Positions 9,242 to 63,857 of a stretch of 64,000 nt of DNA are shown piece by piece. The notes under the pieces were generated by a model that did no database searches, had not been told where the DNA came from, and was given only the letters and a program-made list of their open reading frames with translations. The stretch covers positions 620,001-684,000 of the forward strand of contig JBHGNT010000005.1 in assembly GCA_043228905.1 (NCBI GenBank). Reading direction: 5' to 3'. The stretch comes from Azolla caroliniana (Eukaryota > Plantae > Polypodiophyta). Each line of letters begins with the position of its first letter. Position 1 is the first letter of the stretch. A program made the position numbers and the translations under genes.

Positions 9242-10027
9242 ATGGTGGGAGAAACCGAACTTTCAACCGAACCCACTGTGGTACAAGAAGAAGGCGGAAC
9301 AGATCTTGACATCACCCTGTCCCTAGAGGCCAATCGACTCTTAGTGGAGGAAATCGATTGCCTACATCGTACTTCATTGGTATGTAGGTTTCTTGCAGGT
9401 AGACCAAGTAGTGGCATGGTTCGGGACATGCTCCAAGTGGTTGTGATGGAAAGCATGCCTTCGATCAAGAGCGTTGTAGTGAAGAATTTCGGCCAAAGGC
9501 GGAAACCGGAAATATTGGCTATACCGTTGGGGTGCAGCATGTGCGCTCACCCTTGTACATTTAGTGTGAATAAGGAGGGCGCCTTTATGGCGCCGAAGAG
9601 TAGTCTAGTCGGGACAGAGAATCCCATGTAAGTCGGGATTTATCCCACATTGTAACGCAACTCCCTCCTTGTTCTATAAAAGGAAGGGAGCGCCTCTTGT
9701 GAAGGGTTGCCCATTTTGTATTAGCAGGGTATATCGTTAGACGAAGAGACGTTCTCTCTTCCTTTTTCTCTCTTTCCTTTCTTGCTCTCCTCTGCTTCTT
9801 CTTCGTCGTTCTGCGCGTCGAGCACTGGCGTCTAGCGTTTCAGTTTTCTGCCTTGTACTCCGTGCAAGCCCCGCTCGGCGCGACAAGCCCGAGAGCTCCC
9901 CGACCGACGGCTTGGCAGTAGACAACAGTTGTATCCTATGCGACCTAGGCCCGGCTCGAAGTCGGTGTTGAATCTCGTTGTCTTGTAAATACATATACAT
10001 TTGGTTTTGCATATTCGAGTCTCTGTT

Positions 10028-10061
<34 letters not shown>

Positions 10062-12337
10062 TTTGTGTTTCTTTCTCGTTTCTGTACATAAGGCGTGAGT
10101 TGGGTCGGCGTGCTGTGTGCGTGTGTGCGAGAGTCAATTTTGCGTGCCTTCTCTCTCTCTCTCTCCCTCCCTTCGGTTGCTTCCAGTGTGCTTCTGGGAT
10201 GCCCCAGAAACAGTGAAGCACAACTTCCTACGCGCCGTCACTCCCTAGTCCAAGACCCTCGTGGTCCCGCCTTTCTCCACACACGCGCGAAACTTCGCGA
10301 CAGCGTCCACGGTTTAGGGAAAATTTTCTTCCACATTGAAATGGGTGATGGCGCGATGGCACAACCATTGGTAGAGCTCAAGGTACTTGAATTGAAGTAC
10401 AACAAGGTGTTGCTCCAGCCGTGGTCACCAGGGTTCAATCAATTGAGGAGTTGCAGAAATTTAACAATCCTAGGGTGATCACTGCAACATTTCCTGGCCT
10501 CCCTCCCGACTTGTGCCATCTCCTTCCTTTTTTTGGCGAACAAATTGGGATGATTTGCCCTAAAAAAATGTCCATGGCAGATACAGTAGCGGAGGTACCC
10601 AACCTACACATCTTAGTGCCTTCCCTCCATGGGCTTCCAACAAGAATTAGGCTCTACTCTGAGGAGCTAGGTCTCACAACGGTGAATGTGGTTTATGAGG
10701 GACTCCCTGGGCAGAGTTTCATTTGCAAACAAAAAGGACACCTAGCTAAGGAATGTCCCCGTAAGATTGGAAAGGGAAGCTCGGGACCTCGAACCTCAGC
10801 GAAGGTCGCGCCAACCAAGGGCGACAAGCCTCCTTGGCAACCCGTTAAGAAGCATGGGAAACTTGGAAGTTTAGTTGTAGCCTCTTTCCCCCTCTCTCAA
10901 GACTGCCATCTAGAAAGAAGTCTCACTACCTTGTAACCAGCAAGCGTGGATGAACAACCTTGAAACAGGTGAAAATCCTCTCAAGGAGTGCAGAGGCACA
11001 CGACCTATAGGTGAGAGCGACCAACAGATTTACATTGCTCCAAGGGCTAGGGGGTGGTGACCCAGAAGTGTTGGCAGCAACGTTTTCCCCATACGAATCC
11101 TTGTCCCTTCCCCCACGAGATCCTAAGTTCATGTTCTCCACCCCAATGGAGATGCAACCAAAACTAGTATTATCCACCCCGAAGGAGATGTTGACAAAGG
11201 CCCCCCTCATGATGGAACGTGAATGTGGTGGTGACCTCACTAGTGATATCCTGGATCCGGACGAGCAAGATCAAGGGCAAAGGGACGGGTAATCTGGGCA
11301 GACCATCACCTGATTTGGCGACGTCTCTCTGGGATAGAGGGGTGAGGATGTGCAACCGCTTAGAAGCCAAAATGTATCGTGGGATCTATTTGAAGCGGGT
11401 CGGGAACGACAGGCCAAGAATCCCTTAGGGGCTCTGCAATCTACTGTGGAGTCCCTTCCCCCAGAAGTAGATGATAGTTTGCCCCATGACATGGGGGTCG
11501 GCCTCGACATGGGCATCAACCTCACCGCCTTTGGATGAGGATCCTAACATGGAATGTACAGGGCCATGGTGGAGGCCGACAACAATCACGAGTGCAAAAG
11601 ACTTCAAGGGGAGTTGAATCCCCTTAATATTGGGGGCATCATTGACATATTGCTTTTGCAAGAAGACCACCTCTCTCAAGAGAGAGATTAAAGCCTAGTA
11701 AACCCCTTGTCGGGTTGGTGGACCACGTGGTGGTCGGTTGCACAGGGTGACCTCCACCGAAGAGGAGGGGTCTGCATCTAGATAAGCGATAAGCCCGATA
11801 CGAAGTAACATCACATGGCACGTTGGTGGCGGGTAGAGCCTTATATGTGCTTCTTAAATGGAATCGCCTTCATATTGGGGTGCTAAACATTTATGCCCCT
11901 AACTCTTCCCTCGAGAGAGCAATCTTCTTGAGGATGTTAGTGACAACATTGCCTAATGCAAAGGCTTGGGTAATGGCCGGTGATTTCAACACGACTGAGC
12001 ACCTGGGAGATAGGAAAGGGGGACCTAGAGACCGCTTCATGGTGCGGAGATGGATTCATGGTCTTTCCTAATTGCCAAAATTGGGGTGAAGGATACATGG
12101 GGCTCTTCCCTTAGGAGATGCTCACATTCACTACACTTCTCCCGAGTTGCTGCGAATGTTAGGGGTGGTAGTCTTGCACGGCTAGACCGCATATACATCA
12201 GCTCGTCCCTTGAAGAACTAGGGGGCTCCTTTGCTATCTTGGCAGGTCTTAGCTTCTCTGATCACCAACCAATGAGACTGGACCTTAGCCCACCCCGCGG
12301 TAGGAAGGGCAGTCTCAATGTGAAAATCCCCACAAAG
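9242..12337 (+). mobile_element. L1-type LINE, degenerate: ORF1 (DUF4283-like region plus zinc knuckle) and the APE endonuclease start of ORF2; interrupted by LTR insertions, RT part absent
   Basis: ORF1 reads ...MPSIKSV|HGLGKIFFHIE...LQPWSPGFN once the solo LTR is removed; knuckle (S)FICKQKGHLAKECP. ORF2 starts at 11535 with MRILTWNVQG and contains DILLLQE, NIYAPN, MAGDFN, RLDRIY and SDHQP. Confidence 0.9.
9475..10302 (+). mobile_element. Gypsy-type solo LTR (828 bp) with 4-bp TSD GCGT, inserted in LINE ORF1
   Basis: Termini TGTAGTGAAG..CTTCGCGACA; GCGT at 9471-9474 and 10303-10306; TATA-like CTATAAAAGG near 9674; removing it restores the LINE reading frame. Confidence 0.92.
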
Positions 12338-12458
12338 TGTCACGAGCAGTACTAAGACAAAGAAGTATTGTCAGGAACAATACTAAAACATAGAAGGAAT
12401 TAGTACTAAAAGATGAGGATTAGTACTAAGGGAGGTGTAGAACTCTCGAGAGAATGAA

Positions 12459-12498
<40 letters not shown>

Positions 12499-12787
12499 GA
12501 TAACAAAAGATTATGTTATGTTAAGGGAATATACAATAGTAGCTAGGAGGCTTAAGACTAGCGTTGAACCAAATTGGTTCGAAATAATGCCTTGTGCCTC
12601 CTTTTATAGTGTTCTCAGGAGTACTCCTAAAGTTTCTAGAATGTTCTACATCAATTTTCTATAGTCTGGAATATACATCAATTTTCTATAGTAAAACCTA
12701 AATCAAAATAATATACTTCGTATTACAACATATAGTCTAATGGTCAAGAGCTCGACCCATGTAACATAAGGTCATGGGTTCGAGTCT
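12338..12787 (-). mobile_element. Truncated LTR-like fragment interrupting the LINE endonuclease
   Basis: Starts abruptly with TGTCACG at the LINE breakpoint; has a (GA)n tract and CCTCCTTTTATAG (reverse TATA box). The other end is not found after the nested element. Confidence 0.6.
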
Positions 12788-13708
12788 TGTTAACTCTTCG
12801 GGCCGGACAATGGCCTAACACAGGGTGTCTACGTGAGACACTTCACCAAAGGGTGTTACGGCAACCGGATTAGACTTCAACGCTTAATCCGACTTAGTTA
12901 AGTTACTTATTAGGATCATCTTTCATAACACGCTGTCGAGGGTTGCTACGCCCTTGCGTGCAGAAAGGAGGAGGGACCACGGGGGTCTTGGACCGAAGAG
13001 CAAGAGAGAGAGAGGAGAAGGAGAGAGAGACCCGATTACACAGAACCGAAGATTGCACAGGGACACGGCCCAACAAACAGAGATCACAAATAAACGCCGA
13101 CGCGGATGGACGCAACCACAAAAGATATGTACTTATGAATGCAAGAAATTAACAGGCTAAAGCGTTACAACCCACGGTGGGGCACGAAATAGATACTAAC
13201 GAAAACGAACAGGGCGGCGAACAGATGCCGACCCCTGTATGTCGCGACGCACGGAAAGGGGAAAACAGGTCGGAGGTGCTGCAGGACGCACTCGGGGCGT
13301 TCCACGGAACAGCGCAAGCCTCCTCGAAACCTGCACAGGTACGCGATGGAGCAGAAAACAGAGAAAGCAGGAGTGAGAGAGAGCTTCCCAAATCGGTTCG
13401 GCAGCACTTCGTCCTCTCCGCGCGAGATCCCCCACTTCTATTCTTCCTCTTCCTTTTATATCCCGTCAAGAGGCCGTTTGGCATTAACTGCATGCCAACC
13501 CAATCTACCCACCTAGGATCCTCGTATGTACCTACTTCGTCCTTAGGTACTTCTTGGCGCGCGTGTGCGTGTAGAGCCGTTTCCCCCCCACGCCTTGTTC
13601 CTCCGATTCCCCTTGTGGGCGGTTTTCTTCACGACATCCGCCCCCACCTAACCGCGCATCCACCGGCATGCGCCAATTTAAGTTGGCACGGAGAAAACCG
13701 GCCCGCCC

Positions 13709-16700
13709 TTACTCTTCGCCTGCCGGCCCTTCCTCGGCCTCGGATCGGTCGTCGCTGCTGTCCAGGAGAATCGGGTCGGGTTCGTCGTCGTGCCGCTTCT
13801 TGAAAGCTTTGATCCTCTTCCCGGCCACGGGTATCGCTATTCTCGTACCGTCGAGTTCCGCCAGATGATACGTCCCGTTGTCGTTGGCGCTCTGTACCGT
13901 GTACGGCCCGAACCATCTCCGTGCGAACTTCCGCGTTGCTCGGTGCTGGTTGTCGAGGCTGCTGTCGTAGACGAGCACCCAGTCACCCTGTTCGATCTTC
14001 TTCGGTCGGAGTCGGTGCGTTCGGTCGAACCTGGCCTTGTTCTTTATCCTCGCCACTCGGATCCTTTCTGCAGCCGCCTCCACGTCCTCCGGTCTCCGTT
14101 CGAGTTGTCGTATACGCGCTGCCAACAAGTCCTCCCGGCTCATCTCGTCCCTCCAGTCGACCGTTGCCCATGAGGAGATTGTTCGTTCCATCGGCATGAT
14201 CGGCTTCTGGCCGAACATGAGCTCTGTCGGCATGTACCCGGTTACCGAACTGTGCGTAGTCCGGTCGGCCCACAAAGCATAAGGTAGAAGTCGCGGCCAG
14301 TTACCGATCTGGCCCCCGCATGCCCGAACCAGCGCTTTAACGATCGGTCCGTGTCCGCGCTCCACCTTTCCATTCGCCTCCGGGTTGTACGCAGTGGTGA
14401 GCGAGAGTTTGACTCCCAGCCGATCAAACAGCTCCGCGGCTTCCTCGGTGTCCAACTCCCCTCGGTCAGCCACGATCTTCCCGACGCACCCGTACCGGCA
14501 TATCACGTCTTCGATCAGGAACCGACACACGGCCGCGGTCGTCTTATTCTGAAGGGCTCGGCCTTCCACCTGGTTCGTCAGGTCTTCCCGCGCTAGGACC
14601 AGATACCGCATCTGTCCTACCCCCATCGGCATCGTCACTAGATCTACCATCCATTTGAAGTGGATAGTCGGAGGGTACGTAGGGCGAAGCCCGTCCCGGT
14701 GTCGGACTATCGAGTGCATCTGACAACTCTCGCAAGTTGACACGAACCGATGCACGTCCCGGTACAATCCCGGCCACCAGTACTTCCCCTTCAGTTTCTC
14801 AAATGTCGCCCACGTTCCACGGTGTCCAGCCCAAGGGCTGTCGTGGTAGGCCGCCAGTAGCTCCTCCTGTTCTTCCTTCATCGCCACCACCCGGAGCGGG
14901 ACGCCGTTCCTCTTCTTCGGGTGCTTCCACAAATGCCCATCTCGGAGAAAGAATCGATATGCTTTCTTCCGGATCCGGTTGGCCTCGTCCTTCGTCCACG
15001 ACGCATCGGGCGTCATTGTCTTCAAAAACCCGCCGATCTGCAGCCACTCCCCGTCGTACTTGCTCGCGTCGAACTCGTTAAGCGCCGGAGTGCTCATCCC
15101 GTCGGTCGTCATGTATGCTGCCTCGAAGAAATCCACGCCGACTTCTTCGTCTTCCGAAACCATGCCGCCCTCGTCGTCGAACCTCGCTCTTGAAAGCATG
15201 TCGGCCATGGCGTTGTCTTTCCCGGAAATGTGTCGTATTTCCGGGTCCAGGGACTTGATGTACGCTATCCACCTGAGCATCGCCAGGTCCGGAGTCGCGC
15301 ATCCGGAAACCATACCGAGAATCGGCAGGCAATCCGTCTCGATGATCACTTCTGTCCCTATCAGGTAGTCTTTGTCGGCCTTAACCGCCGAAACAATACC
15401 CCAGAGTTCGCGTTTAACCTGGGCGTATCCTCGCTGCCGTTCACTGAGGACTTTCGCGCCGAATCGGATCGGGAACCGATTGCCGTCCTCGTCTTCCTGG
15501 TTCACGACCCATCCGATCCCGGTCGGACTGGTATCCACCGTTATGAATACCGGGGTACCCTTCCCGTATACCGCCTTCCGAAGTGCCGGTGCCGCTGCAA
15601 GAGCCTCTTTCAGCTTCCGGACCGATTCCGCGTGCTCGTCTAGCCATTCGAACCTTCGCCCCTTTTTCAGCAACCCGTACAGTGGCTCCGCGACGTGTGC
15701 GTAATGCGGGATCCATATGTGGTAGAACGCGCATGCCCCCAGGAATCTCCGTACTTCCGTGACCGAGCTGCAGTCGGGCTTCATCGCGGAGATGGCTTCT
15801 ATCTTTGCCGGAGACGGTTTCCGGCCATATGGTCCACATAAATGTCCGACCACCATGATTTCCGACTGCCCGAATGCTGACTTCTCCCCCGAGAAGGTGA
15901 GCCTCGCATCCTCTAGCCTTTGTAGCACCTTCTCGCAGTCGTCGATGTGCGTTACCACGAATCGCCGGCATCCGTCCGGGCCGATCGTCTCGTCCTTTTC
16001 TTCCACCGGGCATCCCTTGATCGGGATGTCGTCCAGAAACGGCATGGTGATGTCCGGGATACAGTCCCTCAGAACCTTGTTCATCGCATTCACCATGTGG
16101 GCCACCGAGTTGGTCCCTCCTTGCGGCAGTGTACACATCCGAACTAGGCCGAGGGGAGTTCGCATCGTCGTAACGTCTCTGCTCTCCACGGCTAGCTGGA
16201 ACTGGTCGTACCCTGAGTATAGATCCCCGACCGAGTAAATTGACCTTCCGGCGAAGGCCTCCGCGAACTCGTCTATGGTCGGTCCGATCCCTGCGTTCCG
16301 AATCGTCACTCGATTGACCGGCTGCAGGTCCTGGATGAAGCGCAACGAACCGTTTTTCTTCGGTACGGTAAACCATCGATTCGAATATGGGGCGCTCGAC
16401 GGCTCGAGAATTCCCATATCAACTTTCTGCCTCAGCAGCTCCATCAACTTCGGGATGTGAGCTCTCGGAACCGGGATTGGCTTGAGATTCCATGGTACAT
16501 GCGGTACCGTGAATATCACCATCGGCTCCACGATCGTCGGGTCAACGCACCCGATTTCCTCCGGCGAGAATGCGAAGGCTTTCCCGTGCCTTCCGAGCAT
16601 TCTCCGAAACCGGTCTTCCTCCGCCGGCAGTAGGAACCCGCCCCCACCGATTTTGAGCTCTCGGAGCGTCTCGTCGGTGAAGGTGTGTCCTATGCAGGCC

Positions 16701-17206
16701 GGATCTCGTAGACTAGGGTCCGATGCAACCCCTTTGATTCTCGACGCGCTGTCCTCCGGTAAGGGTGCCGCGACTGGCCTTACCTTCCGGTCCACAGTCT
16801 TGTACTTGGTGCTCACGTGGGCCGTCCGAACTGACTCGAGCCCTCGACCGAAGTCCGCGATGACTTCGTGCATCTCCTCGGAACACACCGGTATCGTCCG
16901 GTCTTCGTTAAGGCCTTCTTCGACTACCTTTCCCAGCATTCCCAAGGTGTCGTCGAATGAGACCGCCTCCACGGCCCCGTTGATTTCCTCGTCAGGGCCG
17001 AGAACTCCGCACGCTCGAAGTCTCCCCTCCGCCTTTCTCTTCTCTCGGCCGCCGATGCCGACTGTCGTGCACGCTCCGCTGTCGGAGAACAAAAATTCCC
17101 TACCTATGGTACAAGGTTTCTTCGGTTTTATCGTACAGGTGTGGGGTTTTCCCGGGGTGTCCGGACTGTCGCGGCCCCACGCCTTGGCAGTCCTCTCTAA
17201 AAATCC
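13709..17206 (-). CDS. pol: Pol (RT - RNase H - integrase) of the young Gypsy; the frame is open upstream as far as the slippery site
   Basis: RT motifs QDLQPVN, DLYSGYDQ and FLDD; RH motif VDTSPTGIG; integrase HHCC (HDSPWAGH..CESC), D-D-E core (VDLV, ADRG, KVERGH) and GPY module. No stop between 17206 and 13709 in this frame. Confidence 0.95.
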   Translation of the reverse strand, partial: GFLERTAKAWGRDSPDTPGKPHTCTIKPKKPCTIGREFLFSDSGACTTVGIGGREKRKAEGRLRACGVLGPDEEINGAVEAVSFDDTLGMLGKVVEEGLNEDRTIPVCSEEMHEVIADFGRGLESVRTAHVSTKYKTVDRKVRPVAAPLPEDSASRIKGVASDPSLRDPACIGHTFTDETLRELKIGGGGFLLPAEEDRFRRMLGRHGKAFAFSPEEIGCVDPTIVEPMVIFTVPHVPWNLKPIPVPRAHIPKLMELLRQKVDMGILEPSSAPYSNRWFTVPKKNGSLRFIQDLQPVNRVTIRNAGIGPTIDEFAEAFAGRSIYSVGDLYSGYDQFQLAVESRDVTTMRTPLGLVRMCTLPQGGTNSVAHMVNAMNKVLRDCIPDITMPFLDDIPIKGCPVEEKDETIGPDGCRRFVVTHIDDCEKVLQRLEDARLTFSGEKSAFGQSEIMVVGHLCGPYGRKPSPAKIEAISAMKPDCSSVTEVRRFLGACAFYHIWIPHYAHVAEPLYGLLKKGRRFEWLDEHAESVRKLKEALAAAPALRKAVYGKGTPVFITVDTSPTGIGWVVNQEDEDGNRFPIRFGAKVLSERQRGYAQVKRELWGIVSAVKADKDYLIGTEVIIETDCLPILGMVSGCATPDLAMLRWIAYIKSLDPEIRHISGKDNAMADMLSRARFDDEGGMVSEDEEVGVDFFEAAYMTTDGMSTPALNEFDASKYDGEWLQIGGFLKTMTPDASWTKDEANRIRKKAYRFFLRDGHLWKHPKKRNGVPLRVVAMKEEQEELLAAYHDSPWAGHRGTWATFEKLKGKYWWPGLYRDVHRFVSTCESCQMHSIVRHRDGLRPTYPPTIHFKWMVDLVTMPMGVGQMRYLVLAREDLTNQVEGRALQNKTTAAVCRFLIEDVICRYGCVGKIVADRGELDTEEAAELFDRLGVKLSLTTAYNPEANGKVERGHGPIVKALVRACGGQIGNWPRLLPYALWADRTTHSSVTGYMPTELMFGQKPIMPMERTISSWATVDWRDEMSREDLLAARIRQLERRPEDVEAAAERIRVARIKNKARFDRTHRLRPKKIEQGDWVLVYDSSLDNQHRATRKFARRWFGPYTVQSANDNGTYHLAELDGTRIAIPVAGKRIKAFKKRHDDEPDPILLDSSDDRSEAEEGPAGEE

Positions 17207-17934
17207 TCTCGGTTTTCGGAACCGAGGGAATCACGGTTACGTTCGTGGTTCGGCCTTACCGTCAGAAACTGGACCGAATGGAGCCCGTCTTGGCTTTTGA
17301 CCCTCGCGTAGGCCGAACCATTGTCCAGCACTTTGGTCTCCATCCGCGCCGCCGTAATGTACGGTTCTCCCAGAATGACCGGGTGCGAAGACGTCTCCTG
17401 CACGAAGAAGTGTTGGTCAATCTCGACGTCGCCAATCTTGACCCGCACATTCGGACAGGCCCCGTGCAGTTCCTCGGTGGCGCGCGTTGCTGCCCTTATT
17501 TTCCACCCGTGCTTGGTGTTGATCGGCCATTTGCCCTTCTTATAGAAGTCCATGGACATCAAATTGATCTCCGATCCGTGGTCCACCAAAGCTATCACCG
17601 GTTCCTGGACATCGCCGATCTTCACCGGGGTTTCCGTGGTCGCTCGGGCCCAGTGTGGTCTCGAATAGTGGCTTTCCGCCCACCCGTCTCCCAGCGCCAT
17701 GTCGTCTAGGTGCGTCGTTCGCACTTCCACCGATCTTTCCGGTTCTGTCTCCGTCGACAGCCTCTTCCGTTTCACCAAGTCCACGATGGAGTCGTGGAAC
17801 TCCTTCTTGGCGATTCCCAGCACCTCTCGTAACGACAGCTCCACCTTGCTGTCGAGGATCCGTTCCTCCAGGACCTTTCGTAAGTCCGTGGTCCTTTCTA
17901 TCTCCGTCCCCAGACGGTACCCGCCCTTCTGGGT
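17197..17934 (-). CDS. Aspartic protease-containing ORF of the young Gypsy, in a different frame from both gag and pol
   Basis: Active-site motif ALVDHGSEINLM and VILGEP flap/end motif. The frame opens after a TAA near 17935 and ends ...ENREDF*. Confidence 0.85.
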   Translation of the reverse strand, partial: TQKGGYRLGTEIERTTDLRKVLEERILDSKVELSLREVLGIAKKEFHDSIVDLVKRKRLSTETEPERSVEVRTTHLDDMALGDGWAESHYSRPHWARATTETPVKIGDVQEPVIALVDHGSEINLMSMDFYKKGKWPINTKHGWKIRAATRATEELHGACPNVRVKIGDVEIDQHFFVQETSSHPVILGEPYITAARMETKVLDNGSAYARVKSQDGLHSVQFLTVRPNHERNRDSLGSENREDF

Positions 17935-19322
17935 TTATCTTGCGTACCGGCCCCGCCGGCTTCGTCCCGTCGTGGCCCGGACCGGGTCTCGTATCGTTGT
18001 GAGGGCCCGGTCGTCCCGGGTCTCCCCACCCGCTTCTCTTCTACCAGAGCCTCGTAGTTCTGGCAAGCAGCTTCCACGAAGCCCGTCCTTTCCTCGACCG
18101 GGTCGCTCCACCCGGTCATCTCCCGTACCCGTTTCTCCGCACGGTCCGATTCCTCCCTCTTCATCCTCGTCTCGGCAAGGCCTTCCAGCACCGTTGGCCA
18201 GAATCCGGCTTTGCTTTCCCTCCGGGCCTCGCCGCCCCCAACTCGAATGCCGGCCGACGCCGAGTAGTGGACGGTTTCCGCGTGTCGGGCCGCCGCCTCT
18301 TCCATCACCCTTTTCATACCGCCTTTTCCGTCGTTTCGGCTCAGGGCCCTTCGGGTGTCGCTGGCATGCACCCGTCCTTCCCACAGGTACACCACCCTGT
18401 TCCTCAGCGCCTCCGCGAAGTCGCCGCAGTCCTTCCGAATGTGGCCGACTTCATCGCACCACATGCACCTGTTTCCTGCCGCCGGCCGTCGGTCACGAGC
18501 CGGTTCGCCTCCTTCCCTTCGGGCCTGCGCGATTTGGAGGTCCTTTATCGCCTTCGTCAATTCCTCCAGCGCCGCTCCTCCGGTTGAGCCTCTGACTACG
18601 CCGGTCGAAGCCGAACCGGTTTCCAACCACTCCCGGGTCTCTTCCTTGCGCACCTGTGGCGCTGGTTCGAGCTTCCTTCCTGCGACCGAGCCCGACCCGG
18701 TCGCCCCGTTATCCGCCCATTCTCGCCGTTTGTCGAAACGGCCACAGACCTTCCTGACAGCCGCCCAGTCGGTAGTGAGCCCGTCTTCGGTTTCCAGCAA
18801 GAAGCCCACTTGCTCCCGATCCCGCTCGTCGACCGACTTGACAAACAGCAAGACCCGGCTCGTGTCCAGGATGGTTCGGTCAAGCGCCGAAAGGCGCGCA
18901 AAGTTTTCCTCGAACTCCCGGAGGAGCGCCGACGCGTTTCTTCCCTTCCCCGGGGACTCCACCCATTCCATGAACCTTCGCTTCGAAAGCCGGAGCGCGT
19001 CGTCCAGCCCGTATTTCTCTAGGAGCCGACCTTCGAACTCCTCCCAGGTACGGCTCTCCGTCCGCACCTCGAGCACCTCCGCATGGATGCTCGGCATCGC
19101 CACTCGGGGAAATCCGGCAAGACGCCTTTCTTCCGGAATGTCCCGCATCAGCATCTCTGCACCGTAGGACGCCAAATACTTCGTGGCATCCTTCCCATCG
19201 AACCGGCCGATCGTGCCGACGACCGCCTCAATAGCTCTGTCGAGGGCGCCGGTGCTCTCGCGCGCGTTTACAATCCGATCCACGGCCGAAGCCATGGCCT
19301 CTGCGAGATCCGACCCCCTCAT
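17898..19322 (-). CDS. gag: Gag of the young Gypsy
   Basis: First ATG after the PBS (MRGSDLAEAM); GRFDGKDATKYL capsid-like start; CCHC knuckle CMWCDEVGHIRKDC. Confidence 0.88.
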   Translation of the reverse strand: MRGSDLAEAMASAVDRIVNARESTGALDRAIEAVVGTIGRFDGKDATKYLASYGAEMLMRDIPEERRLAGFPRVAMPSIHAEVLEVRTESRTWEEFEGRLLEKYGLDDALRLSKRRFMEWVESPGKGRNASALLREFEENFARLSALDRTILDTSRVLLFVKSVDERDREQVGFLLETEDGLTTDWAAVRKVCGRFDKRREWADNGATGSGSVAGRKLEPAPQVRKEETREWLETGSASTGVVRGSTGGAALEELTKAIKDLQIAQARREGGEPARDRRPAAGNRCMWCDEVGHIRKDCGDFAEALRNRVVYLWEGRVHASDTRRALSRNDGKGGMKRVMEEAAARHAETVHYSASAGIRVGGGEARRESKAGFWPTVLEGLAETRMKREESDRAEKRVREMTGWSDPVEERTGFVEAACQNYEALVEEKRVGRPGTTGPSQRYETRSGPRRDEAGGAGTQDKPRRAGTVWGRR

Positions 19323-19344
19323 TTCCTGCTCTTCTGCCGCCTCC

Positions 19345-19362
19345 TTCACGTCGGGTTCACCA
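19345..19362 (-). other. Primer binding site complementary to tRNA-Trp
   Basis: The minus strand reads TGGTGAACCCGACGTGAA, 4 nt from the LTR. This is complementary to ...TTCACGTCGGGTTCA-CCA, the plant cytosolic tRNA-Trp 3' end as I recall it. Confidence 0.85.
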
Positions 19363-20415
19363 AAGATGTCGAGGGTTGCTACGCCCTTGCGTGCAGAAAG
19401 GAGGAGGGACCACGGGGGTCTTGGACCGAAGAGCAAGAGAGAGAGAGGAGAAGGAGAGAGAGACCCGATTACACAGAACCGAAGATTGCACAGGGACACG
19501 GCCCAACAAACAGAGATCACAAATAAACGCCGACGCGGATGGACGCAACCACAAAAGATATGTACTTATGAATGCAAGAAATTAACAGGCTAAAGCGTTA
19601 CAACCCACGGTGGGGCACGAAATAGATACTAACGAAAACGAACAGGGCGGCGAACAGATGCCGACCCCTGTATGTCGCGACGCACGGAAAGGGGAAAACA
19701 GGTCGGAGGTGCTGCAGGACGCACTCGGGGCGTTCCACGGAACAGCGCAAGCCTCCTCGAAACCTGCACAGGTACGCGATGGAGCAGAAAACAGAGAAAG
19801 CAGGAGTGAGAGAGAGCTTCCCAAATCGGTTCGGCAGCACTTCGTCCTCTCCGCGCGAGATCCCCCACTTCTATTCTTCCTCTTCCTTTTATATCCCGTC
19901 AAGAGGCCGTTTGGCATTAACTGCATGCCAACCCAATCTACCCACCTAGGATCCTCGTATGTACCTACTTCGTCCTTAGGTACTTCTTGGCGCGCGTGTG
20001 CGTGTAGAGCCGTTTCCCCCCCACGCCTTGTTCCTCCGATTCCCCTTGTGGGCGGTTTTCTTCACGACAACGCGTAAGATATAACAATTAAGACAGAACG
20101 GCAATTAACACAGAGAGATAACAACGCTTAAGCTTTCATTAATTAACCGCTAACTATTACATTGTATCCGGGCCTTTAAATAGGTTTCCGGTCTGTATTA
20201 CAAAACGGTGCCATCCGCACCTGTTCGGGATCGGTCCAGATCCGGAACGGCATACCGATTCCGGTCCGTCCGTCCACACTCATAGCTTAATTACAACCAC
20301 ATTCCTACTACTTAATTAGCTCTCCGTTTCCCACTCTGGACTCCTTTGCCGGCCGGTAACACATGGCACGCCTGTGGGACAGTACCTTGTACGTCGAATC
20401 CACAACCGACCCTTG

Positions 20416-23314
20416 CTATTCTTCGTCCAAAATGTCCAGAATGCTTTGTTCGAGAGGCTCCAATGGTTCATTTGGAAGTGGTTGTTGTTGTTGTTGTTGT
20501 TGCTACTCTGTTGCTGTCTGTTGCGGCGGGTCCGTTGGTGGTTGTTGCGGCTGCTCCTCCGTTTGTGGCTCTGACCCCAGCGTCTCCGTCGTTGCTCCCT
20601 GCGTCGTAGTGGTCTCCGGTTGACTGGTTCCCGGCTGGCCCTCAGCCGGCGACGATTCCTCATCACTAAGGTTAACCGTTGTCGCTTCCTGTGCTTTTTC
20701 TTCCCGTACCCGGGACCGCTCGTAGCTTTCAAACTGGATTTGAGCGTCCAGCCTATCATCGTCCAACTGAGCTACGAGTTGCCTGACCTGCGCCAGCTGT
20801 TCATCTGCCAGGACTTGGAAGTCGTCGGCCAGCTCGTCCCGTATGGCGGTGAAGTCCTCGGAAGTCAACGTATAACAGTCATCTCCTTCCTTCCGCCGGT
20901 TTGCCACATCCGCCCGTAGCAACTGGAGTTCCGTCGCGTTTTGTGCCCACTTTGTCCACCATTTTACGGAGCTTTCATCAATCAAGTGTTTCGTCTGATT
21001 CAGCCATGCCCGGAGGATGGACTGAATCCGGCTCGTTCCCAATTGCGATTTGGTTTCCGCCGCTTGCCGTTCCTCCTTCAGTTGTTTGATGATTTTGACG
21101 TTGTCCTCCGCCTGCGCCTTGTAATGCGTCAATTGCCTTTGATATGTACTTTGTAATTTCTGCAATACTGTTGACGCTCTCTCTTTGTCTTCCTGCTGCT
21201 GCCTCTGGAGCTCTATTCGGACCTTCTCCGCCTCTTCCAAGCGTCTTGTATTTTCCGCCCGTTCGTCGGCGATCGCCGTCGCGGCCCGATCAACTACCTG
21301 CTGGAGCTCGGCCATCCGTTCTTTATGCTCCGTTTCCAGCCATTTGTAGTCCCGGTGTAGGTGCTCAAAATCATCTGTCTTTTGCTTGAGCCGTGCGTTG
21401 ATCTGACGACGGGCCCGGTCCTCGCGGTCCTTCTGCTGGCGGAGCTCTTCCTTTAGCCGTTCAATCTCTGTTTCCGCCGTTTTCCGCAGCTTGTCCTTTT
21501 CCTGCAACACTTTGTCTTTCTCCTCCTTTAGCCGGTCGTACGCTTGATGGCCTTTCCGAAGGCTCTCCTCTACCCGGCGGAGGTTCTCAGCAGTCTTCTT
21601 TAATTCGGCTTCGGCTGCCGTCTTCAATTCTCGTTCACGGCTCCTTAACGCTTCTTGTGCGGCAAGTTCCTCTCTCAATTCCGCAAGCTCCCAAGCTTGC
21701 GCCGCATCTCTCGCCGGAACGGTTTCCGTTGCCGGGGTCTTATTGCTATGTACAGGTCGTTCCGTTTCTTTATTCTGTACACTTACCGGAGTCACTGGTG
21801 ATTGGATCCGTATTTTGGCCATCTCTGTCGTGACCTGATCCAAATCTTTTTCAAGGCACCGGATTCTGGACCCGGCCGTCTCTAGTTGTTCGGTTGTGAC
21901 GAGCAACCGTTCGCTTTGCGCTCTTTCTTCCGCCTCTATATACCCCACTGCTCCGGCTATCTGTTCGCCTATCCACCGGAGCCACAGGCTACCGGTGCCT
22001 TGTTGTGCTTGCACAGAGGTTTGATAGATGAGCTCACTTCTAGAGGGGTGGTCCCGCCTGGTTGCGCCGAGTTGTAGTTCCTTTTCTGTCCGTGGACCAT
22101 CCTGTTATCCTGGTTCCCCTTGCGCTTCTTCTTGGCTGACCGAGGGAGGCTGCAGTGACCGAGGGAGTCTCAGTCTGGGGAGCCGGTGTTCCCTCTGTCT
22201 GAGGGTCCGAACGTTTCCCGGTTGTCTCAACGGTCCTTGCCGACGACCGTCGCTGGAGGTGCTCCGTAGGCTCCTCCTCTATTTCCTCCTCCTGAGCTCC
22301 GGCATTGAGTTTTGCTGCCAAGGGGTCCACTTCTCGATTCACCGGTCGGTGGAGTGTGACCTTTACGGGCCGTGCCGGTGGTTCCTCCTGCGCCTCCGTT
22401 GGGTGCTTCCGGCTTCCGCTTCCTGCTGCCGCCTGTTCTGCATCCACCGCCTTTCCCTTACTGGCCTTAGAGGCCAACATCTGTTGCCGTTTGGAAGCCG
22501 TCCTTGGGGTGCCGTCCAGCACTCTTCCTCGCTTCTTGGGCTGGACGGTCTGAACGGGTTGCACCAGCAAGGTGAGCCACTGCGTTACGGCGTGCCATAT
22601 CCTTCGTCCGTCTCGGCCTTCTTTGCCGTCTTTGCCTCTAACGATCTTGATCGCCGCACACAACCCGTCTGCAATCAATACCGGCCAATCCACCTTGATT
22701 CCTTCATAGGTGGCGATGATCATCCCTGCCCGGTTTTGCGGCATGACAGGGGTTCTAGGGTACACGTGGCCGTATTCATGGAGCACACGAGCAATTTCGC
22801 GGAAAAGCATATCCCCGCCGCCCTGTGTCCGGTAGCCCTTGCTGGCTAGAGAGTACTCACCAAAATACCTGATGAGTTGCTCCGGGGTTGGATTGTCGAT
22901 CGTGAGTATGCCTCCCTCCGGAAGGCCTGTTAACGCTCGAATCGCCTCTACCGTTATGACCTCTGTATCGATTTCCTTGATCACTTTGTCGGCTTCTTTG
23001 TGTGGCAGTACTTCCATCATCATCAAGAAGCCCTCGAGCCCGTGTTGCTTCAACCATGTCTTGGCGGCTTCCGACAGCGTTTGCGGGTCCATCTCTATGT
23101 CGGGGTCGGATTGCGGTGGCGAGGATGGATGGTGATGAGAGTGGGGTTGAGAAAGAGAGAGTTCAGAAGGCGGGGGTTCTCTGTACGCAGGTTCTCGTCT
23201 AATGATCTTGCAGCGTTTCGGTGCTTCTGTGCTCCTGGGTTCGCGAAAGTAGAGGGTCTCTACGCACAATGGTTTTTGTCTGTGCATTCTGGCGCCTTTT
23301 TCGAGTTTGTGCAT
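20416..23314 (-). CDS. Extra ORF(s) in the env-like position of the Athila-like element; now two ORFs (22040-23314 and 20503-22014) with frameshift/stop damage
   Basis: The N-terminal part has the pattern ITVEAIRALTGLPEGG...YEGIKVDWPVLI seen in plant retroelement accessory ORFs. The C-terminal part is a long E/K/R/Q-rich coiled-coil-like stretch with a Q/P-rich tail. Confidence 0.7.
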
Positions 23315-23465
23315 GTCGCGTACTTAAAATAGCATTATGTCCTGTGGTGGCGCTTTAAATGCCCACTACATACCTTTTCGCTCCACGCTCTTTCCTCCAT
23401 TCATTCCTCGCTTTTGCATGATTGTTTTTTTTTTTTTTTCAGTTATTTTTATTGTTAGTGTGACG

Positions 23466-29240: not shown

Positions 29241-29275
29241 CCATCCGTGCCATCGTTCGCTGCAAAAACAGGAAT

Positions 29276-29286
29276 CGTGGTCGCCA
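29276..29286 (-). other. Primer binding site, probably tRNA-Arg
   Basis: The minus strand reads TGGCGACCACG, 7 nt from the 5' LTR; this matches the ...GTGGTCG-CCA end of plant tRNA-Arg(UCG) as recalled. Confidence 0.65.
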
Positions 29287-29739
29287 AAAACTGTGTTAAC
29301 TCTTCGGGCCGAACAATGGCCTAACACAGGGTGTCTACGTGAGACACTTCACCAAAGGGTGTTACGGCAACCGGATTAGACTTCAACGCTTAATCCGACT
29401 TAGTTAAGTTACTTATTAGGATCGTCTTTCATAACACGCGTAAGATATAACAATTAAGGCAGAACGGCAATTAACACAGAGAGATAACAACGCTTAAGCT
29501 TTCATTAATTAACCGCTAACTATTACATTGTATCTGGGCCTTTAAATAAGTTTCCGGTCTGTATTACAAAACGGTGCCATCCGCACCTGTTCGGGATCGG
29601 TCCGGATCCGAAACGGCATACCGATTCCGGTCCGTCCATCCACATTCATAGCTTAATTACAACCACATTCCTACTACTTAATTAGCTCTCCGTTTCCCAC
29701 TATGGACTCCTTTGCCGGCCGGTAACACAAAGTTGTTGA

Positions 29740-40164: not shown

Positions 40165-40324
40165 GAGCTAGGTGGAGTGGGAGCTTTGGTTATAAGTGGG
40201 ATATGGGAAGCTGGGAGGAGCCTGCGGGGCAGCCAGATGATGGATTAGGGTTTGGGGGGAGGGGGTGCTTCTGGAGATGATTAGGGTTTTAAATATGGTA
40301 CTGAATGGATTTTGATGAAGAAGC

Positions 40325-40760: not shown

Positions 40761-40763
<3 letters not shown>

Positions 40764-46269: not shown

Positions 46270-46272
<3 letters not shown>

Positions 46273-46319: not shown

Positions 46320-46322
<3 letters not shown>

Positions 46323-48384: not shown

Positions 48385-48447
<63 letters not shown>
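48385..48447. repeat. Compound (TG)n(AG)n microsatellite
   Basis: Directly visible. Confidence 0.95.
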
Positions 48448-48450
<3 letters not shown>

Positions 48451-55954: not shown

Positions 55955-56244
55955 TGTAAAGGAGCCCTACTCTCCGGGGCTCAACCTTTTTCATGTGAAA
56001 AGGAGGGGCTCAACCTTTTTCATCAGTAGCTCTACCGACTCTGGGAAGGAGCCAGACTTAAAAACAAACATCAAAAACTCCAAAAAATGGTAAGTGTACA
56101 ACAAATTTTTGCCATGAAAATGATCATAAAATTTCTCAAAAAAACTTAAAGATTCAAATAACAAAGTCTTACATAAAATATTAAAACATCAAATGTTTAC
56201 AACCCTAAAATGAAATATGAATATACACACGTTACATATTAAGA

Positions 56245-58275: not shown

Positions 58276-58736
58276 CATTTGCTATAGAGAGAGAGAGAGA
58301 GAATAGTACACATAAGTTCATTAAATGTCCTATAACGTGTACCATTTGGAAGTACTTATCGGACATTTGGCAAGTTTTAACCCGTTGTTGTTTAAGCCCT
58401 CAACAATGGGTTTTTTCTCAATATTTTCAAAATGGATGAAATGATGAGATAAAAATATTGTTCCAAATTTTACATTATTGGGGTCTACAACACAATTAGA
58501 ATATGCGTAATGCTTTCATGTTTGATAATAGACATGGGGTGACAGCCTATATAAAGAAGCTTAAAGGTATTCTCATGTGGAATTTTTGGATGTTAGAGCA
58601 TGTGGGGATCATGTCCTCAAATGCCTATTCAGGTTTTTTAATTGCATTATAGAACTTTGTTGTGATGTGGCGTGCTCGAGAGTGGGAAAAACCGGCGAAA
58701 GGGGGGGGTCAAAATGTGCATGTGTAATGTTTAATG

Positions 58737-61700
58737 TTCATGGCAAACGATTTGTCGAAAGCTTTCTTCAAGTTTCCAATCTTCCTTGCGTCTTGACCGA
58801 CTATCAACATATCATCAACATATAGCAAGAGAATCAAGAAAGTCTCCTTCCTCGTACCTTTTGACGAACACACAGTGATCGGCCTGTGTTTTCTGGAACC
58901 GATGTTCCATCATGAAGGACTCAAATTTCTTGTACCATTGGCGTGGAGCTTGTTTCTGTTCGTACAAGCTTTTCCTCGGTCGACACACCAGATTCTCTTT
59001 TCCTTTCTCCTCAAAGCCTCCGGGTTGCTACATGTAGATTTCTTCTTCTAACTCCCCGTGCAGAAATGTGGTTTTGACATCCAACTGTTTGATCTCCAGA
59101 TCCATGTTGGCCGCTATGCTCAGAATAGTTCGAATCGATGTCATCTTTACGACTAGTGCGAATATTTCGTCAAAGTCGACGCCCTTCCTCTGTTGGAAAC
59201 CCTTCACCACTATGCGGGCTTTATACCTAGGCTCGTTGTCGACTTCTCCAGTCTTCACCTTGTAGACCCATTTATTCCTGAGTGCTCTCTTACCTTTCGG
59301 CAACTCCACTAGGTCGTAGGTGTAATTCGCGTGCAAGGATTCCATCTCCTCTTGCATCACGTTCAACCATTTTCCTCTGCTCTTGTCGGCAATGGCTTCT
59401 TCATAGCACTCTGGTTCACCGTCATCAATCAAGAGGATGTATTGACTGGCATATGTAGTCGGTGCCTTCCTTTCTCTGAGTGGGTACCTTCGTCCACTCG
59501 CCGTTGGCTCTATTTTGGATGTCTCTGCCAACTCTTCTCTTTGCTCGAGATTCTGCTCATCAATCGGCATCTCCAAGTTGGACAACTCCAACTCATATTC
59601 CTCAATTGATTTTAGTAGATTTGCCGACTCCGACTCATAGTCTGTTGGTCTTTCCGAGTCGACCGACTCGGATTCGGCTCTGTTGGCCAACTATCTCCTT
59701 ACAGCTGCCGGTGACGACACACTTGGCCTTAAGTCGATGGCAGTCGAGGTTGACTAGGGAGTTAGTTCCGACTTATATTGCTTCCAGTCATCAATTGTCT
59801 TGCCTTCAAGAAAGACGACATCCCGACTTCTCACTACCTTCTTGTCAACTAAGTCCCATAGCCTGTAGTCGAACTCATCTTCTGAGTATCCCATGAATAT
59901 GCAAGCTTTCGACTTGCTGTCGAGCTTTGACCTCTGATCATTTGGTACATGCATATATGACAAACATCTGAACACCCTCAAGTGTTGGTAAGAGACATCC
60001 TTCCCTATCCACACTCTCTGTGGGACATCACCCTTTAGAGGTACCGAGGGAGACCTATTGATCAGATAAACAACTGTGTACATCGCCTCAACCCAATAGG
60101 ATTTTGACAGTTTCGCATGACAGAGCATGCTCCTCACTCTCTCCGTGATTGTTCGATTCATCCTCTCTGCAAGCCCGTTCAATTCTGGGGTCTTTGGCAC
60201 TGTGTATTCAATCCGAATACCTTGGCACTTGCAGTATTCCTCGAATTGCCCTTTGTACTCGCCACCGTTGTCGGTTTGGACAACCTTCAATTTCCGATCC
60301 GACTCTCTTTCGGTTCTTGCCTGGAACTCCTTGAAAACCGACAGTACTTGATCCTTCGACTTCAATACAAAGGCCCATGTCTTCCGACTATAGGCGTCAA
60401 TGAACGTTACAAAGTACTGTCCTCCTCGATGCGATGGAGCATCCACATAGCACACATACATGTGCACTAGTTCCAGTGCAACTTCTCTTCTCCTCGGTGG
60501 TCTCGAGTGGAATGCTGCCCTGTTCTGCTTTCCGGCTAAGCAGTCGACACACTTCTCTAGATGTACTGCCTTGACTTCTAGTAGACGTTTCTGGTCAGCT
60601 AACATGTGCATTCCCTTCTCACTCATGTGGCCTAGCCTCTTATGCCATATCTCCCCTACCGAGTTGGCTGCCACGTTTACTTCCGATTTGCACAATCGGG
60701 CATGCATCATGTACAATGTGCCTTCTTTCTGTGCTCGGGCCACTATAAGGTTTCCTCGGCAGAACTTCCACATGCCATTCCGAAAGCTACCATTGTAGCC
60801 TTCGTCATCAAGCCTTCCAGTCGATATCAGATTCAACCTGATATCGGGGACGTGTCGAACATCCTTCAACGTTAGTCGACACCCTATCAACGTCGTTAAG
60901 CACACACTTCCGACTCTGCTTATCTTGCACTCTCCACTATCACCCATCTTTACATAGCCATGATCCCCGGCTATGTAAGTCGAGAAATACTCTCTCGACG
61001 GAGTAATATGGAAGGATGCGCCGGAGTCGATCACCCACGCCCACGTGTAATCTTCACTCGCAAGATTTGCACTCGTTTGTTCACAGATGAACAGGAGTTC
61101 TTCATTGCTCATAGCAATGGTTGAAGTGTTCTTGTCATCCGGAATCTTTCGAGGTTCGACATTATTTCCGACACTCTTGTCTTTTCTCATGTGTCGACAC
61201 TCCTTCTGGAAGTGTCTAGGTTTTCGACAATAAAAGCACACAGGCTTACCTCTGGACTTCGATCTGGCGTGGGATTTGTTCGTTCACTACAAACTTCTTC
61301 TTCGCCGGTCCTTTCCTCTGTACATATGTTGAGTCAGATTTGACTTTGTTTGGGACAGGACTCCTTTGTCTTTCCTCCTTGCCTCCTCATTTAGGATGCT
61401 TGTCTTCACCATCTGCAAAGACAAGTTCTCTTCTTGACAGGAGGTGTTGAGAGTAACCACCAAGTTCTCTCAGCTTTCCGACAGTGTGCACATCAGCAGG
61501 ATGGCATGCATTGCATCATCCAGGGAAAACTTGGTCGTTGCAAGTTGATTTACATACCCCATGAATGTGCTGATGTGTTCGATGATGCTCTCACCGTCTC
61601 TATATTTCAGCCGTATGATCTTTCTCATTAGCGAGGTTCTATTGAGCGCATTCTTCCTCTCGTACAAACCTGACAGCTTCTACCACATCTCGTGGGCATT

Positions 61701-62679
61701 CATGTCGTTCGCCACATGCTGAAGGACACTTACATCGACACATTGTCGGATTGTGGCCACCGCCTTCCTATTCAGAAGCTTCCAGTCCGACTCCAATACG
61801 CCCCTGGGTATTTCTGCTTTGTCGACTAGCTCATACATGTCTTTTACTATAAGAAGGTCTTCCATCTTTATCTTCCAGTCTTCATAGTTCTGAGAGTTTA
61901 GAACTATCATACCTTGGAATCCGCTCACGCCTCCTTCCATGCTTGCACCTCAAGCTTTGATACCAGTTTGATGAGGAATCGTCGCGGAATAGATCACAAT
62001 AATTGAACTACATGCTAAAATACGAATCACAAGAATACACCAGAAAGACAAGATAAACAGATGTACACAGAGATTTACATGGAAACCCTAAAACAGGGAA
62101 AACCACGGGTGAACAGATTTCTTCACTATACAAGTGGATATACAACACAGAGATGATTACAACACTCTCTGTAGAGTGCATCAGCCGCAGAGGGCTCTTC
62201 GCGTCTACTGTTACACACACAGCTATGGTGCGGCTCTCACTCACACTCTCTCTCTCGCTCTCCTGCACACTACACTGTTTCTACACTATTCATCACACAC
62301 TACATGTTTGCCCTAGTTGCATATATACTTACACAACGTTCTAGCTATTTACATACGTAGCCCTCATGGGGCGCACACTTACACTATTTACAAATATAGT
62401 CTCTCGAGTTGGCTTTTTACACGATTCCGGTTTCGGCCTCGGCCGAGTCGCTCATCAACTCGGCTCCTCTCTCTTTCCCATATGGAGGGACTTGTTTCCA
62501 CACATCATCATCATTATTATTACTATAATAATAATAATCATCGAATCTTCAAACAGTCGACTCACTGTTTTCGACTCTTTGATTGTCGACTTTCCGAACA
62601 GTCGGATATTCCCTGTCATCGATTGTCGGCTTTCCGATCAATCGGTTCTTCCTCCCACTAGAGGGACATATTCCCAACA
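58737..62679 (-). mobile_element. Ty1/Copia element (Tnt1/Tork-like): 5' LTR 61969-62679, tRNA-iMet PBS, gag-PR-INT-RT; truncated inside RT
   Basis: PBS TGGTATCAAAGC at 61954-61965; gag NYEDWKIKMEDLL; knuckle CFYCRKPRHFQKEC; protease WVIDSGAS; WHKRLGHMSEKG; integrase TDNGGEY and NGLAERMNRT; RT RYKARIVVKGF and LLYVDDML. Coding stops at ...KSFAM near 58737, with no RNase H or 3' LTR. Confidence 0.93.
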
Positions 62680-63756
62680 TTTTATTCCTTTTGCATTGAA
62701 GACAAAATTGGCGACCCCACTTCTTTATTTCCTATAAAAGGAGGTCGAGGGGGGCTCATTTGAGGAAGACGTTTTGGGAAGAGGAGACTATCGCCATTTT
62801 TCCTTCAGAGCTCTTCATCTTCTTCTTCACCACTTCTCTTCATCTCTTCATACCCCTTCATCCCCTCATCGCCATGAGCTCGTCTTCTTCGCGTTGGCAC
62901 TTGAAGTGCTCGTGAGCCCAAGCTTCGTTGGTTCAACGTTGCGAGCCCCGTTCGTCGTTGCGAGCCCGTATGCTCACCGTTCGGATGGTCATGGTTCGTT
63001 GGGGTTTGCATTTTGGTGGTGCTTGTGTGTTCATCTTTGCCGTGATCGGTTTTGCTCTTGTCTCTAAGGGCATTTAGTATTTCTGTTTTGATTGAGCTTG
63101 TGGTTGACTAGAAGTTGCCTTTGTAATCAAACCCAATTTTATAAAGGATCCTCTAGCGTTGGAATCGAACACATATTTATTTCTTTGGCTTATATCATTC
63201 ATGTTTCTTTCTTTCTTTGTCTGTGTCTTCCTTGTACGTTCGGCCATCTTGTGACGAGGGAGCGTTTCAGGCATACCCATGCACCTCTCCTCCTCATAAA
63301 GATGTACGGGCATTCGTGTTTGTGTTATCGTACCCTTGTGCGTTCATCTTGCGTACTCATCTTTGCTTGTACCCGTTTGATCACTTGGCTCGTGCGGTGA
63401 TCTCGAAAGGTCGACGAGTCGTGATCAACGAAAGCCGCCGACCTCACAAACAAAGGGCAACGAGCCTTTGCTCGGGAAGGGTTTGTAGAGAGGATTCGTA
63501 GAGTGAGTTCGTAGAGAGGGTTCGTAGAGTGAGTTGGTAGAGAGGATTCGTAGAGAGGATTTGTAGAGTGAGGATTCATAGAGAGGATTCGTAGAGTGAG
63601 TTAGTAGAGAGGATTTGTAGAGTGAGTTCAAAGAGTGCTTTATATTTATAAGATTTAAAATAAATAAATAATTAATTATTTGTCGCTTGAGTACTCCCTA
63701 GTCCAAGACCCCCGTGGTCCCGCCCAAGTAACACATGCACGCGAAACTTCGCGACA
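62680..63756 (+). mobile_element. 3' portion of a Gypsy-type LTR related to the solo LTR at 9475-10302, cut on the left by the Copia insertion
   Basis: CTATAAAAGG near 62732. The end CTCCCTAGTCCAAGACCCCCGTGGTCCCGCC...CGCGAAACTTCGCGACA is nearly identical to 10241-10302. Internal GTAGAG(A/T)G-type short tandem array at 63485-63629. Confidence 0.8.
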
Positions 63757-63857
63757 ACGCCCCTCTCCCTACATAGGCATATGATAGGTAGAGGAGACTA
63801 AGAAGTGTTGTAACTAAGTGGATTTTACATACAATTAATATAATTGTGTGCTTTTAC

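What the first reader, a model, noticed from the sequence alone, without database searches (positions are those of the whole stretch)
9471..63760. Three related Gypsy insertions all at a CpG-centred RCGY 4-bp target
Seen in sequence: the solo LTR at 9475-10302 has TSD GCGT; the element at 12934-20069 has TSD ACGC (GCGT in element orientation); the LTR ending at 63756 is followed by ACGC (63757-63760, one side only). All three fit the palindromic consensus RCGY in a window whose intergenic DNA is visibly CpG-poor. Established: most plant LTR elements make 5-bp TSDs with little sequence preference, while some Drosophila errantiviruses (ZAM, Tirant) make 4-bp TSDs at CG-rich targets. Inference: a sequence-selective integrase that prefers CpG would steer insertions into young, CpG-rich transposons; the two fully resolved cases are both inside other transposons.
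Basis: partly seen in the sequence, partly recalled or inferred. Interest (0 to 1): 0.75.

Follow-up and report, generated by a model that had tools for sequence, protein, structure and literature searches.

The report
Fern retrotransposons that insert at CpG
A lineage of jumping genes in what is likely a fern genome lands almost only on CG pairs, copying a 4-base NCGN target, a habit already reported for the moss Phygy elements to which this lineage is likely related, so it extends a known rule to a new plant group rather than revealing a new one.

Summary
The CpG target is real and genome-wide, but the motif is NCGN (best VCGB), not RCGY, and it is in print. Two window TSDs are confirmed (GCGT, ACGC; empty site seen). 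The third LTR's left flank reads ACTT, so that TSD is unresolved. In the host genome 765 of 896 LTR 3' ends are followed by VCG, against 3.2% expected. Of 31 paired flanks, 21 are exact 4-bp duplications and 10 differ only by transitions that fit 5mC decay. Only about half are RCGY. Two co-resident LTR families make 5-bp, CG-free TSDs. The element has a tRNA-Trp primer site and no chromodomain or extra RNase H, matching Phygy (Neumann 2019: 4-bp NCGN, tRNA-Trp), defined from a moss. A host gene points to a fern. Phygy membership by phylogeny could not be tested. Sites lie in CpG-richer DNA exactly as much as a CG-seeking enzyme predicts; a non-CG Gypsy control is similar, and one window host is a decayed LINE. 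Likely mechanism: a 4-bp-stagger integrase that bends a central YR step and reads CG. Methyl-sensing is untested. The scan noted NCGN targets before in a fungal genome (unchecked).

The parts
9471..9474 (+). Left TSD GCGT of solo LTR (family B)
9475..10302 (+). Solo LTR, family B, 828 bp, TG...CA
   Evidence: relatives at 83-96% with the same ends, PBS and PPT
10303..10306 (+). Right TSD GCGT
9230..12320 (+). Decayed LINE-like host of the solo LTR (approximate ends): ORF1 remnant with zinc knuckle, then endonuclease-like motifs read by eye
   Evidence: zf-CCHC E=0.001, below the Pfam cut-off; sequence; LINE identity is an inference
12930..12933 (-). TSD ACGC (GCGT in element orientation)
12934..13636 (-). 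3' LTR of full-length family A element
   Evidence: 703 of 703 identical to the 5' LTR
13637..13648 (-). Polypurine tract
13709..17230 (-). pol frame, 1173 aa: RT, RNase H, H2C2 zinc finger, integrase core, GPY motif; no chromodomain or extra RNase H hit
17197..17934 (-). Overlapping frame with DUF4100 and weak aspartyl protease hits
17898..19366 (-). gag-like frame (only a very weak zinc-knuckle hit, E=0.8)
   Evidence: gag identity inferred from position
19345..19362 (-). Primer binding site, 18 nt complementary to the 3' end of host tRNA-Trp(CCA)
19367..20069 (-). 5' LTR of family A element
20070..20073 (-). TSD ACGC
12788..29727 (-). Outer, unrelated Gypsy element whose 3' LTR received the family A insertion (RT 25% identical; 5-bp TSD family)
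29436..29439 (+). Empty target (single ACGC) in the outer element's other LTR
58654..58657 (+). Left flank ACTT of the family C LTR; does not match the right flank
58658..58730 (+). 5' tip of the family C LTR (89-97% to other copies)
58757..62679 (-). Truncated Copia nested in the family C LTR (5' LTR 61969-62679; 3' part and part of the host LTR missing; left end approximate)
62680..63756 (+). Remainder of the family C LTR
63757..63760 (+). Right flank ACGC

Best explanation
These are three families of one tRNA-Trp-primed, chromodomain-less Ty3/Gypsy lineage that duplicate a 4-bp CG-centred target, likely the fern branch of the moss Phygy clade, and the choice is likely made by the integrase itself. 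Shown: 4-bp TSD, CG centre, T/A avoided at the edges (VCGB), lineage specificity, PBS and domain content. Inferred: the integrase cuts with a 4-bp stagger and must kink the target at its central step, as the foamy-virus intasome does (VYRB), and a base-reading contact narrows YR to CG, with or without 5mC. Because any CG is eligible, insertions follow CpG density and so fall often into other transposons. The duplicated CGs are then likely methylated and decay to CA/TG, which explains nearly all non-CG flanks of older copies.
For: 765 of 896 ends VCG versus 3.2% background. 31 paired flanks: 21 exact at 4 bp (13 of 13 in the youngest family; one boundary corrected), 10 differing only by C>T/G>A changes, none above 3 of 5 at 5 bp. 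Position 1 among CG sites A 0.60, C 0.21, G 0.12, T 0.07 versus background 0.23/0.27/0.16/0.35. Controls: CG at positions 2-3 in 2 of 32 outer-Gypsy and 1 of 42 Copia flanks. PBS matches host tRNA-Trp. Phygy: 4 bp, NCGN, tRNA-Trp 81%, no extra domain. PFV integrase is the best PDB hit for the single sequence (E=2e-20) and its target is VYRB with a bent central YR step (PMC4422553 passages). CA/TG/TA steps are 20% of background versus 3.5% for CG, so flexibility alone cannot give CG. ZAM integrase binds its CG target in vitro (PMC2527525 abstract). Flank CpG density equals the CG-anchored expectation (4.75 vs 5.08 per 100 bp, p=0.08).
Against: No Phygy reference sequence could be obtained, so clade membership is untested; no Physcomitrium-named protein appeared among the 240 listed homologs. 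The element (7136 bp) is shorter than the Phygy range 7656-9968. All data are standing insertions, not new ones; no biochemistry. The structure prediction failed (mean pLDDT 51.5), so no contact residue is located. The third window site has unmatched flanks. The outer Gypsy control also sits in CpG-rich DNA (4.55 per 100 bp), so chromatin or selection contributes to nesting independently of the motif.
Confidence: 0.78

Rival explanations
1. The integrase reads methylated CpG: 5mC, not CG as such, is the signal, giving a chromodomain-free route into silenced repeats.
For: No chromodomain. At least 35 of 134 flanks match transposon sequence from this window alone. CG methylation is widespread in a fern genome (PMC9477723 passages). 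TSD CGs decay by transitions.
Against: Decay shows methylation after insertion, not before. Sites track total CpG density with no extra bias. ZAM targets CG-rich sites in Drosophila, which has little CG methylation (the latter recalled).
Confidence: 0.12
2. A host factor that binds CG or methyl-CG tethers an otherwise unselective integrase.
For: Tethering is common for retroviruses and Ty3 (recalled; BET and LEDGF are mentioned in listings).
Against: The CG sits exactly at the centre of the duplication with palindromic edges and little information beyond it; a tether would give regional, not base-exact, bias.
Confidence: 0.05
3. An independent fern/liverwort lineage, not Phygy, that shares the NCGN target through older ancestry (with fungal Gypsy and Ginger1) or convergence.
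For: Closest named homologs are from Riccia and Adiantum, none from Physcomitrium. DUF4100 hit. Ginger1 transposons use CCGG/CCGT 4-bp TSDs (PMC2836005 passages). TatI also has 4-bp TSD and tRNA-Trp. An unchecked scan note reports NCGN in fungal elements.
Against: TSD length, motif, primer tRNA and compact, extra-domain-free layout all match Phygy together; Phygy-labelled elements are already reported from a liverwort (PMC12885004 passages); moss transposon proteins may simply be unannotated (inference).
Confidence: 0.2
4. Chance, boundary error or post-insertion selection produces the motif.
For: n=3 in the window; LTR ends are themselves CG-rich.
Against: Empty site fixes the boundary; 26-fold enrichment over 896 ends; co-resident families under the same selection lack it.
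Confidence: 0.01

Closest known systems
Phygy clade, non-chromovirus Ty3/gypsy of Physcomitrella patens (Neumann et al. 2019, PMC6317226: passages, section 9, Additional file 5)
   Same: 4-bp TSD, NCGN motif, tRNA-Trp PBS, no chromodomain or aRH, coding region filling almost all of the internal part
   Different: Host is likely a fern; 7.1 kb versus 7.7-10.0 kb; edge preference (VCGB) not given in the passages seen; phylogenetic link untested
Prototype foamy virus intasome (Serrao et al. 2015, PMC4422553, passages)
   Same: 4-bp stagger, central YR step, T/A disfavoured at TSD edges; best PDB hit for this integrase
   Different: PFV accepts any YR weakly; here CG is nearly obligatory; the residue region matching PFV Ala188 reads DRGEL with a one-residue gap
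Ginger1 DNA transposons (Bao et al. 2010, PMC2836005, passages)
   Same: Gypsy-type integrase with GPY/F motif; 4-bp CG-centred TSD
   Different: DNA transposons of animals; CCGG 75%, CCGT/ACGG 24%, whereas ACGT leads here
ZAM errantivirus of Drosophila (Faye et al. 2008, PMC2527525, abstract)
   Same: CG-rich target chosen by the integrase
   Different: 6-base CGCGCg consensus; insect lineage
TatI and Selgy (Neumann 2019, Additional file 5)
   Same: 4-bp TSD; TatI uses tRNA-Trp
   Different: TatI has an aRH domain, Selgy uses tRNA-Ala; neither has a reported NCGN motif

Membership tests
Phygy | Groups with Phygy in RT/RH/INT phylogeny (the formal definition) | not testable with these tools
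   REXdb sequences (Additional files 1 and 3) were too large to read; my tree had no Phygy reference and only joins the element with unnamed, Riccia and Adiantum relatives apart from the outer Gypsy
Phygy | 4-bp TSD | tested here: met
   21 of 31 pairs exact, 10 with transition changes, none at 5 bp; empty site
Phygy | NCGN target motif | tested here: met
   765 of 896; 114 of 134 plus 20 decay products
Phygy | tRNA-Trp PBS | tested here: met
   18-nt match to a host tRNA-Trp gene; same PBS in families B and C
Phygy | No chromodomain, no aRH, no extra ORFs; coding region fills the internal part | tested here: met
   Pfam scan; frames span 13709-19366 of an internal part 13637-19366
Phygy | Length 7656-9968 bp (descriptive range from 186 moss copies) | tested here: not met
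   7136 bp; taken as a sampling range, since the paper calls size relatively insignificant for classification
TatI | aRH domain | tested here: not met
   Only one RNase H region in pol
Selgy | tRNA-Ala PBS | tested here: not met
   PBS is tRNA-Trp
Chromoviruses | C-terminal chromodomain | tested here: not met
   No Chromo hit; pol ends about 60 aa after the GPY motif

The most novel reading that the evidence does not exclude
The integrase of this lineage directly recognises methylated CpG, using DNA methylation instead of a chromodomain to find silenced repeats, and the trait marks an old CG-targeting integrase branch shared by mosses, liverworts, ferns, some fungi and Ginger1.
Probability: 0.12. 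Interest if true: 0.75.

Novelty: new member of a known kind. Interest (0 to 1): 0.33.

Why it matters
Sequence-specific integration is rare among plant LTR elements; Neumann 2019 names Phygy as the only exception. A large, recently active fern lineage with the same rule (1953 exact hits to one LTR motif, identical LTRs) shows the trait outside mosses and gives hundreds of sites to define it (VCGB). It makes one open question testable: whether an integrase can read cytosine methylation. It also matters for annotation, since 4-bp TSDs that decay at CpG are easily missed.

Tried and rejected
RCGY as consensus: rejected (60 of 114). A 5-bp TSD with shifted boundary: rejected. Third site as a resolved TSD: left flank found but unmatched. 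Extra steering into CpG-rich DNA beyond the motif: not seen. A hot spot at the CG-rich 3' tip of related LTRs: 9 of 134 flanks flagged, but most were found because the host LTR was the search query; not claimed. AlphaFold model of the integrase: mean pLDDT 51.5, pTM 0.26, not used and no fold search run. Getting a Phygy reference: homolog searches and cluster look-up named no Physcomitrium protein; supplements too large. Link to fungal Ylt1 target sites: passages of PMC5014426 and PMC2864245 gave no Ylt1 TSD. GingerRoot: 6-bp TSD, not relevant. ESM Atlas for the host gene gave no useful taxon. Rfam on the PBS and ARAGORN on the window found nothing. Metagenome relatives (80 loci) show the same PBS and LTR ends down to about 63% integrase identity, but gave only 7 host flanks, 6 of them NCGN, and their hosts were not determined. 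Literature: searches 'Phygy+fern', 'Phygy', 'Phygy/NCGN', fern LTR terms and CpG insertion preference listed no paper on a fern NCGN target; I judged most hits from titles and abstract starts only, and the library lacks most subscription papers.
Full report
Observation. The solo LTR at 9475-10302 has GCGT on both sides and the element at 12934-20069 has ACGC on both sides. The latter has identical 703-bp LTRs and sits in the 3' LTR of an unrelated Gypsy whose other LTR keeps a single ACGC at 29436-29439; this empty site fixes a 4-bp duplication. The third LTR ends at 63756 before ACGC. It is interrupted by a truncated Copia; its 5' tip is at 58658 and is preceded by ACTT, so this site is either mutated twice or a recombinant, and is not a confirmed TSD. 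The three LTRs share only 24-64 nt at their 3' tips, but their families share the primer site, polypurine tract and terminal repeats.

Genome-wide test. I counted LTR 3' ends with a 16-base end pattern followed by a non-T base, which excludes the primer site: 896 ends, of which 765 continue with CG. The pattern leaves out family A ends, flanks starting with T and flanks with A at +14, and includes some segmental duplicates. Background from 40 evenly spread 10-kb stretches is 3.2%, an enrichment of about 26-fold. A hand count of the first 100 rows gives 90 CG, 9 CA/TG/TA and 1 other; 49 of the 90 are RCGY. In stored loci, 61 of 71 3' flanks and 54 of 71 5' flanks were CG-centred before filtering. 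After dropping 8 rows (a primer-site remnant, a boundary miscall, a duplicate, two decayed tracts, two inverted junctions, one repeated context) 114 of 134 were CG and the other 20 CA/TG/TA; both flanks of one insertion are often in this set. Of 31 left/right pairs, 21 are exact 4-mers (one after a boundary correction), 6 differ by one CpG transition, 3 by a transition at an edge base and 1 by two transitions; none exceeds 3 of 5 at 5 bp. The edges favour A/T and disfavour T/A (position 1: A 0.60, T 0.07; background 0.23, 0.35), so the motif is VCGB within NCGN. Controls: the outer Gypsy and Copia families make 5-bp TSDs with CG at positions 2-3 in 2 of 32 and 1 of 42 flanks.

What the element is. 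Pol carries RT, RNase H, zinc finger and integrase core in Gypsy order, with a GPY motif and no chromodomain or extra RNase H. The primer site matches a host tRNA-Trp gene over 18 nt. Closest named proteins are from the liverwort Riccia (up to 65% over pol residues 250-1000) and the fern Adiantum; the outer Gypsy RT is only 25% identical. A host gene in the window, red chlorophyll catabolite reductase, is 66-68% identical to fern proteins versus 57% or less to named moss and seed-plant proteins, so the host is likely a fern.

Known precedent. Neumann et al. 2019 (PMC6317226; passages, section 9 and Additional file 5 read; Additional files 1 and 3 could not be read and bear on membership) state that Phygy is the one plant clade with a target motif, NCGN, and list 4-bp TSD 100%, tRNA-Trp 81%, no extra domain. 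Jedlicka et al. (PMC6911290, passages) report GC-centred 4-bp TSDs and Phygy nesting in other elements. Phygy-labelled elements are mentioned in a liverwort (PMC12885004, passages). All testable features agree except length; the phylogenetic definition could not be tested. I therefore call it Phygy-like, likely a member or sister. My searches listed no report of this target in ferns.

Mechanism. Shown: base-exact, palindromic, lineage-specific CG targeting. From established work: integrases with a 4-bp stagger bend the target at a central YR step and disfavour T/A at the edges; the foamy-virus consensus is VYRB (PMC4422553, passages), and that integrase is the best PDB hit. Inferred: bending explains the 4-bp YR frame and the edges, but not CG, since CA/TG/TA steps are six times commoner; a base-reading contact is needed. 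ZAM integrase binds its CG-rich target directly (PMC2527525, abstract) and Ginger1 transposases use CCGG/CCGT (PMC2836005, passages), so Gypsy-type integrases can do this. A candidate is the loop after the second catalytic aspartate, DRGEL in 81 of 120 homologs (35 gave no match to the pattern), which aligns with a one-residue gap to the PFV Ala188 region; this is a lead only, as the structure model failed.

Steering into transposons. CpG density in 200 bp beyond the TSD is 4.75 per 100 bp (95% interval 4.3-5.2), above random positions (3.48; 2.9-4.1) and equal to random CpG-anchored positions (5.08; 4.4-5.6). At least 35 of 134 flanks match transposon sequence from this window alone. So the motif suffices to explain the shift, with no sign of further targeting. 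Against a special role: the outer Gypsy control scores 4.55 (Copia 3.17), and the solo LTR lies in a decayed LINE with 2-3 CpG per 100 bp near the site. CG methylation is widespread in a model fern (PMC9477723, passages) and the TSDs decay as expected of 5mC, but that dates from after insertion; whether the enzyme senses methylation is open.

Verdict. Real, strong and lineage-specific, but a known behaviour in a likely new host group. An earlier, unreviewed scan note reports NCGN TSDs in a fungal genome; it led me to Ginger1 and is not counted as support. Novelty: new member of a known kind. Interest 0.33.

Noticed in passing
window 12788-29727; PPT position 20364-20385: The outer Gypsy family has no purine tract before its 3' LTR; the same non-purine sequence recurs in its copies. 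Earlier scan notes on this genome describe it as a tRNA-Arg 3'-end copy.
   Followed up: partly
window 12783-12787 and 29728-29732: The outer Gypsy copy has unmatched 5-base flanks (AGTCT, CAAAG) although its family makes 5-bp TSDs; possibly a recombinant of two copies.
   Followed up: no
window 58658-63756: Copia nested in a family C LTR, with a deletion removing the Copia 3' part and roughly 230 nt of the host LTR.
   Followed up: partly
L024, L077, L078, L101, L107, L113, L132: Insertions into the CG-rich 3' tip of related LTRs; possible self-nesting hot spot, but ascertainment-biased.
   Followed up: partly
G000 C8 17.80-17.82 Mb, C16 4.99-5.11 Mb, C5 10.1 Mb: Clusters of a tRNA-Trp 3'-end motif, on C8 spaced about 1.2 kb: possibly tandem tRNA gene arrays or tRNA-derived repeats.
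   Followed up: no
L018, L117: LTRs preceded by a polypurine tract and followed by a primer site: tandem three-LTR structures.
   Followed up: no
window 17197-17230 and 17898-17934: The family A coding region is in three overlapping frames; whether these are programmed frameshifts was not examined.
   Followed up: no
window 37225-40167 and 51964-55966: Host genes: a multi-finger C2H2 zinc-finger protein and red chlorophyll catabolite reductase.
   Followed up: partly
window 63452-63648 and 8507-8790: 13-bp tandem array inside the family C LTR and a 54-bp array inside a Copia-like LTR.
   Followed up: no
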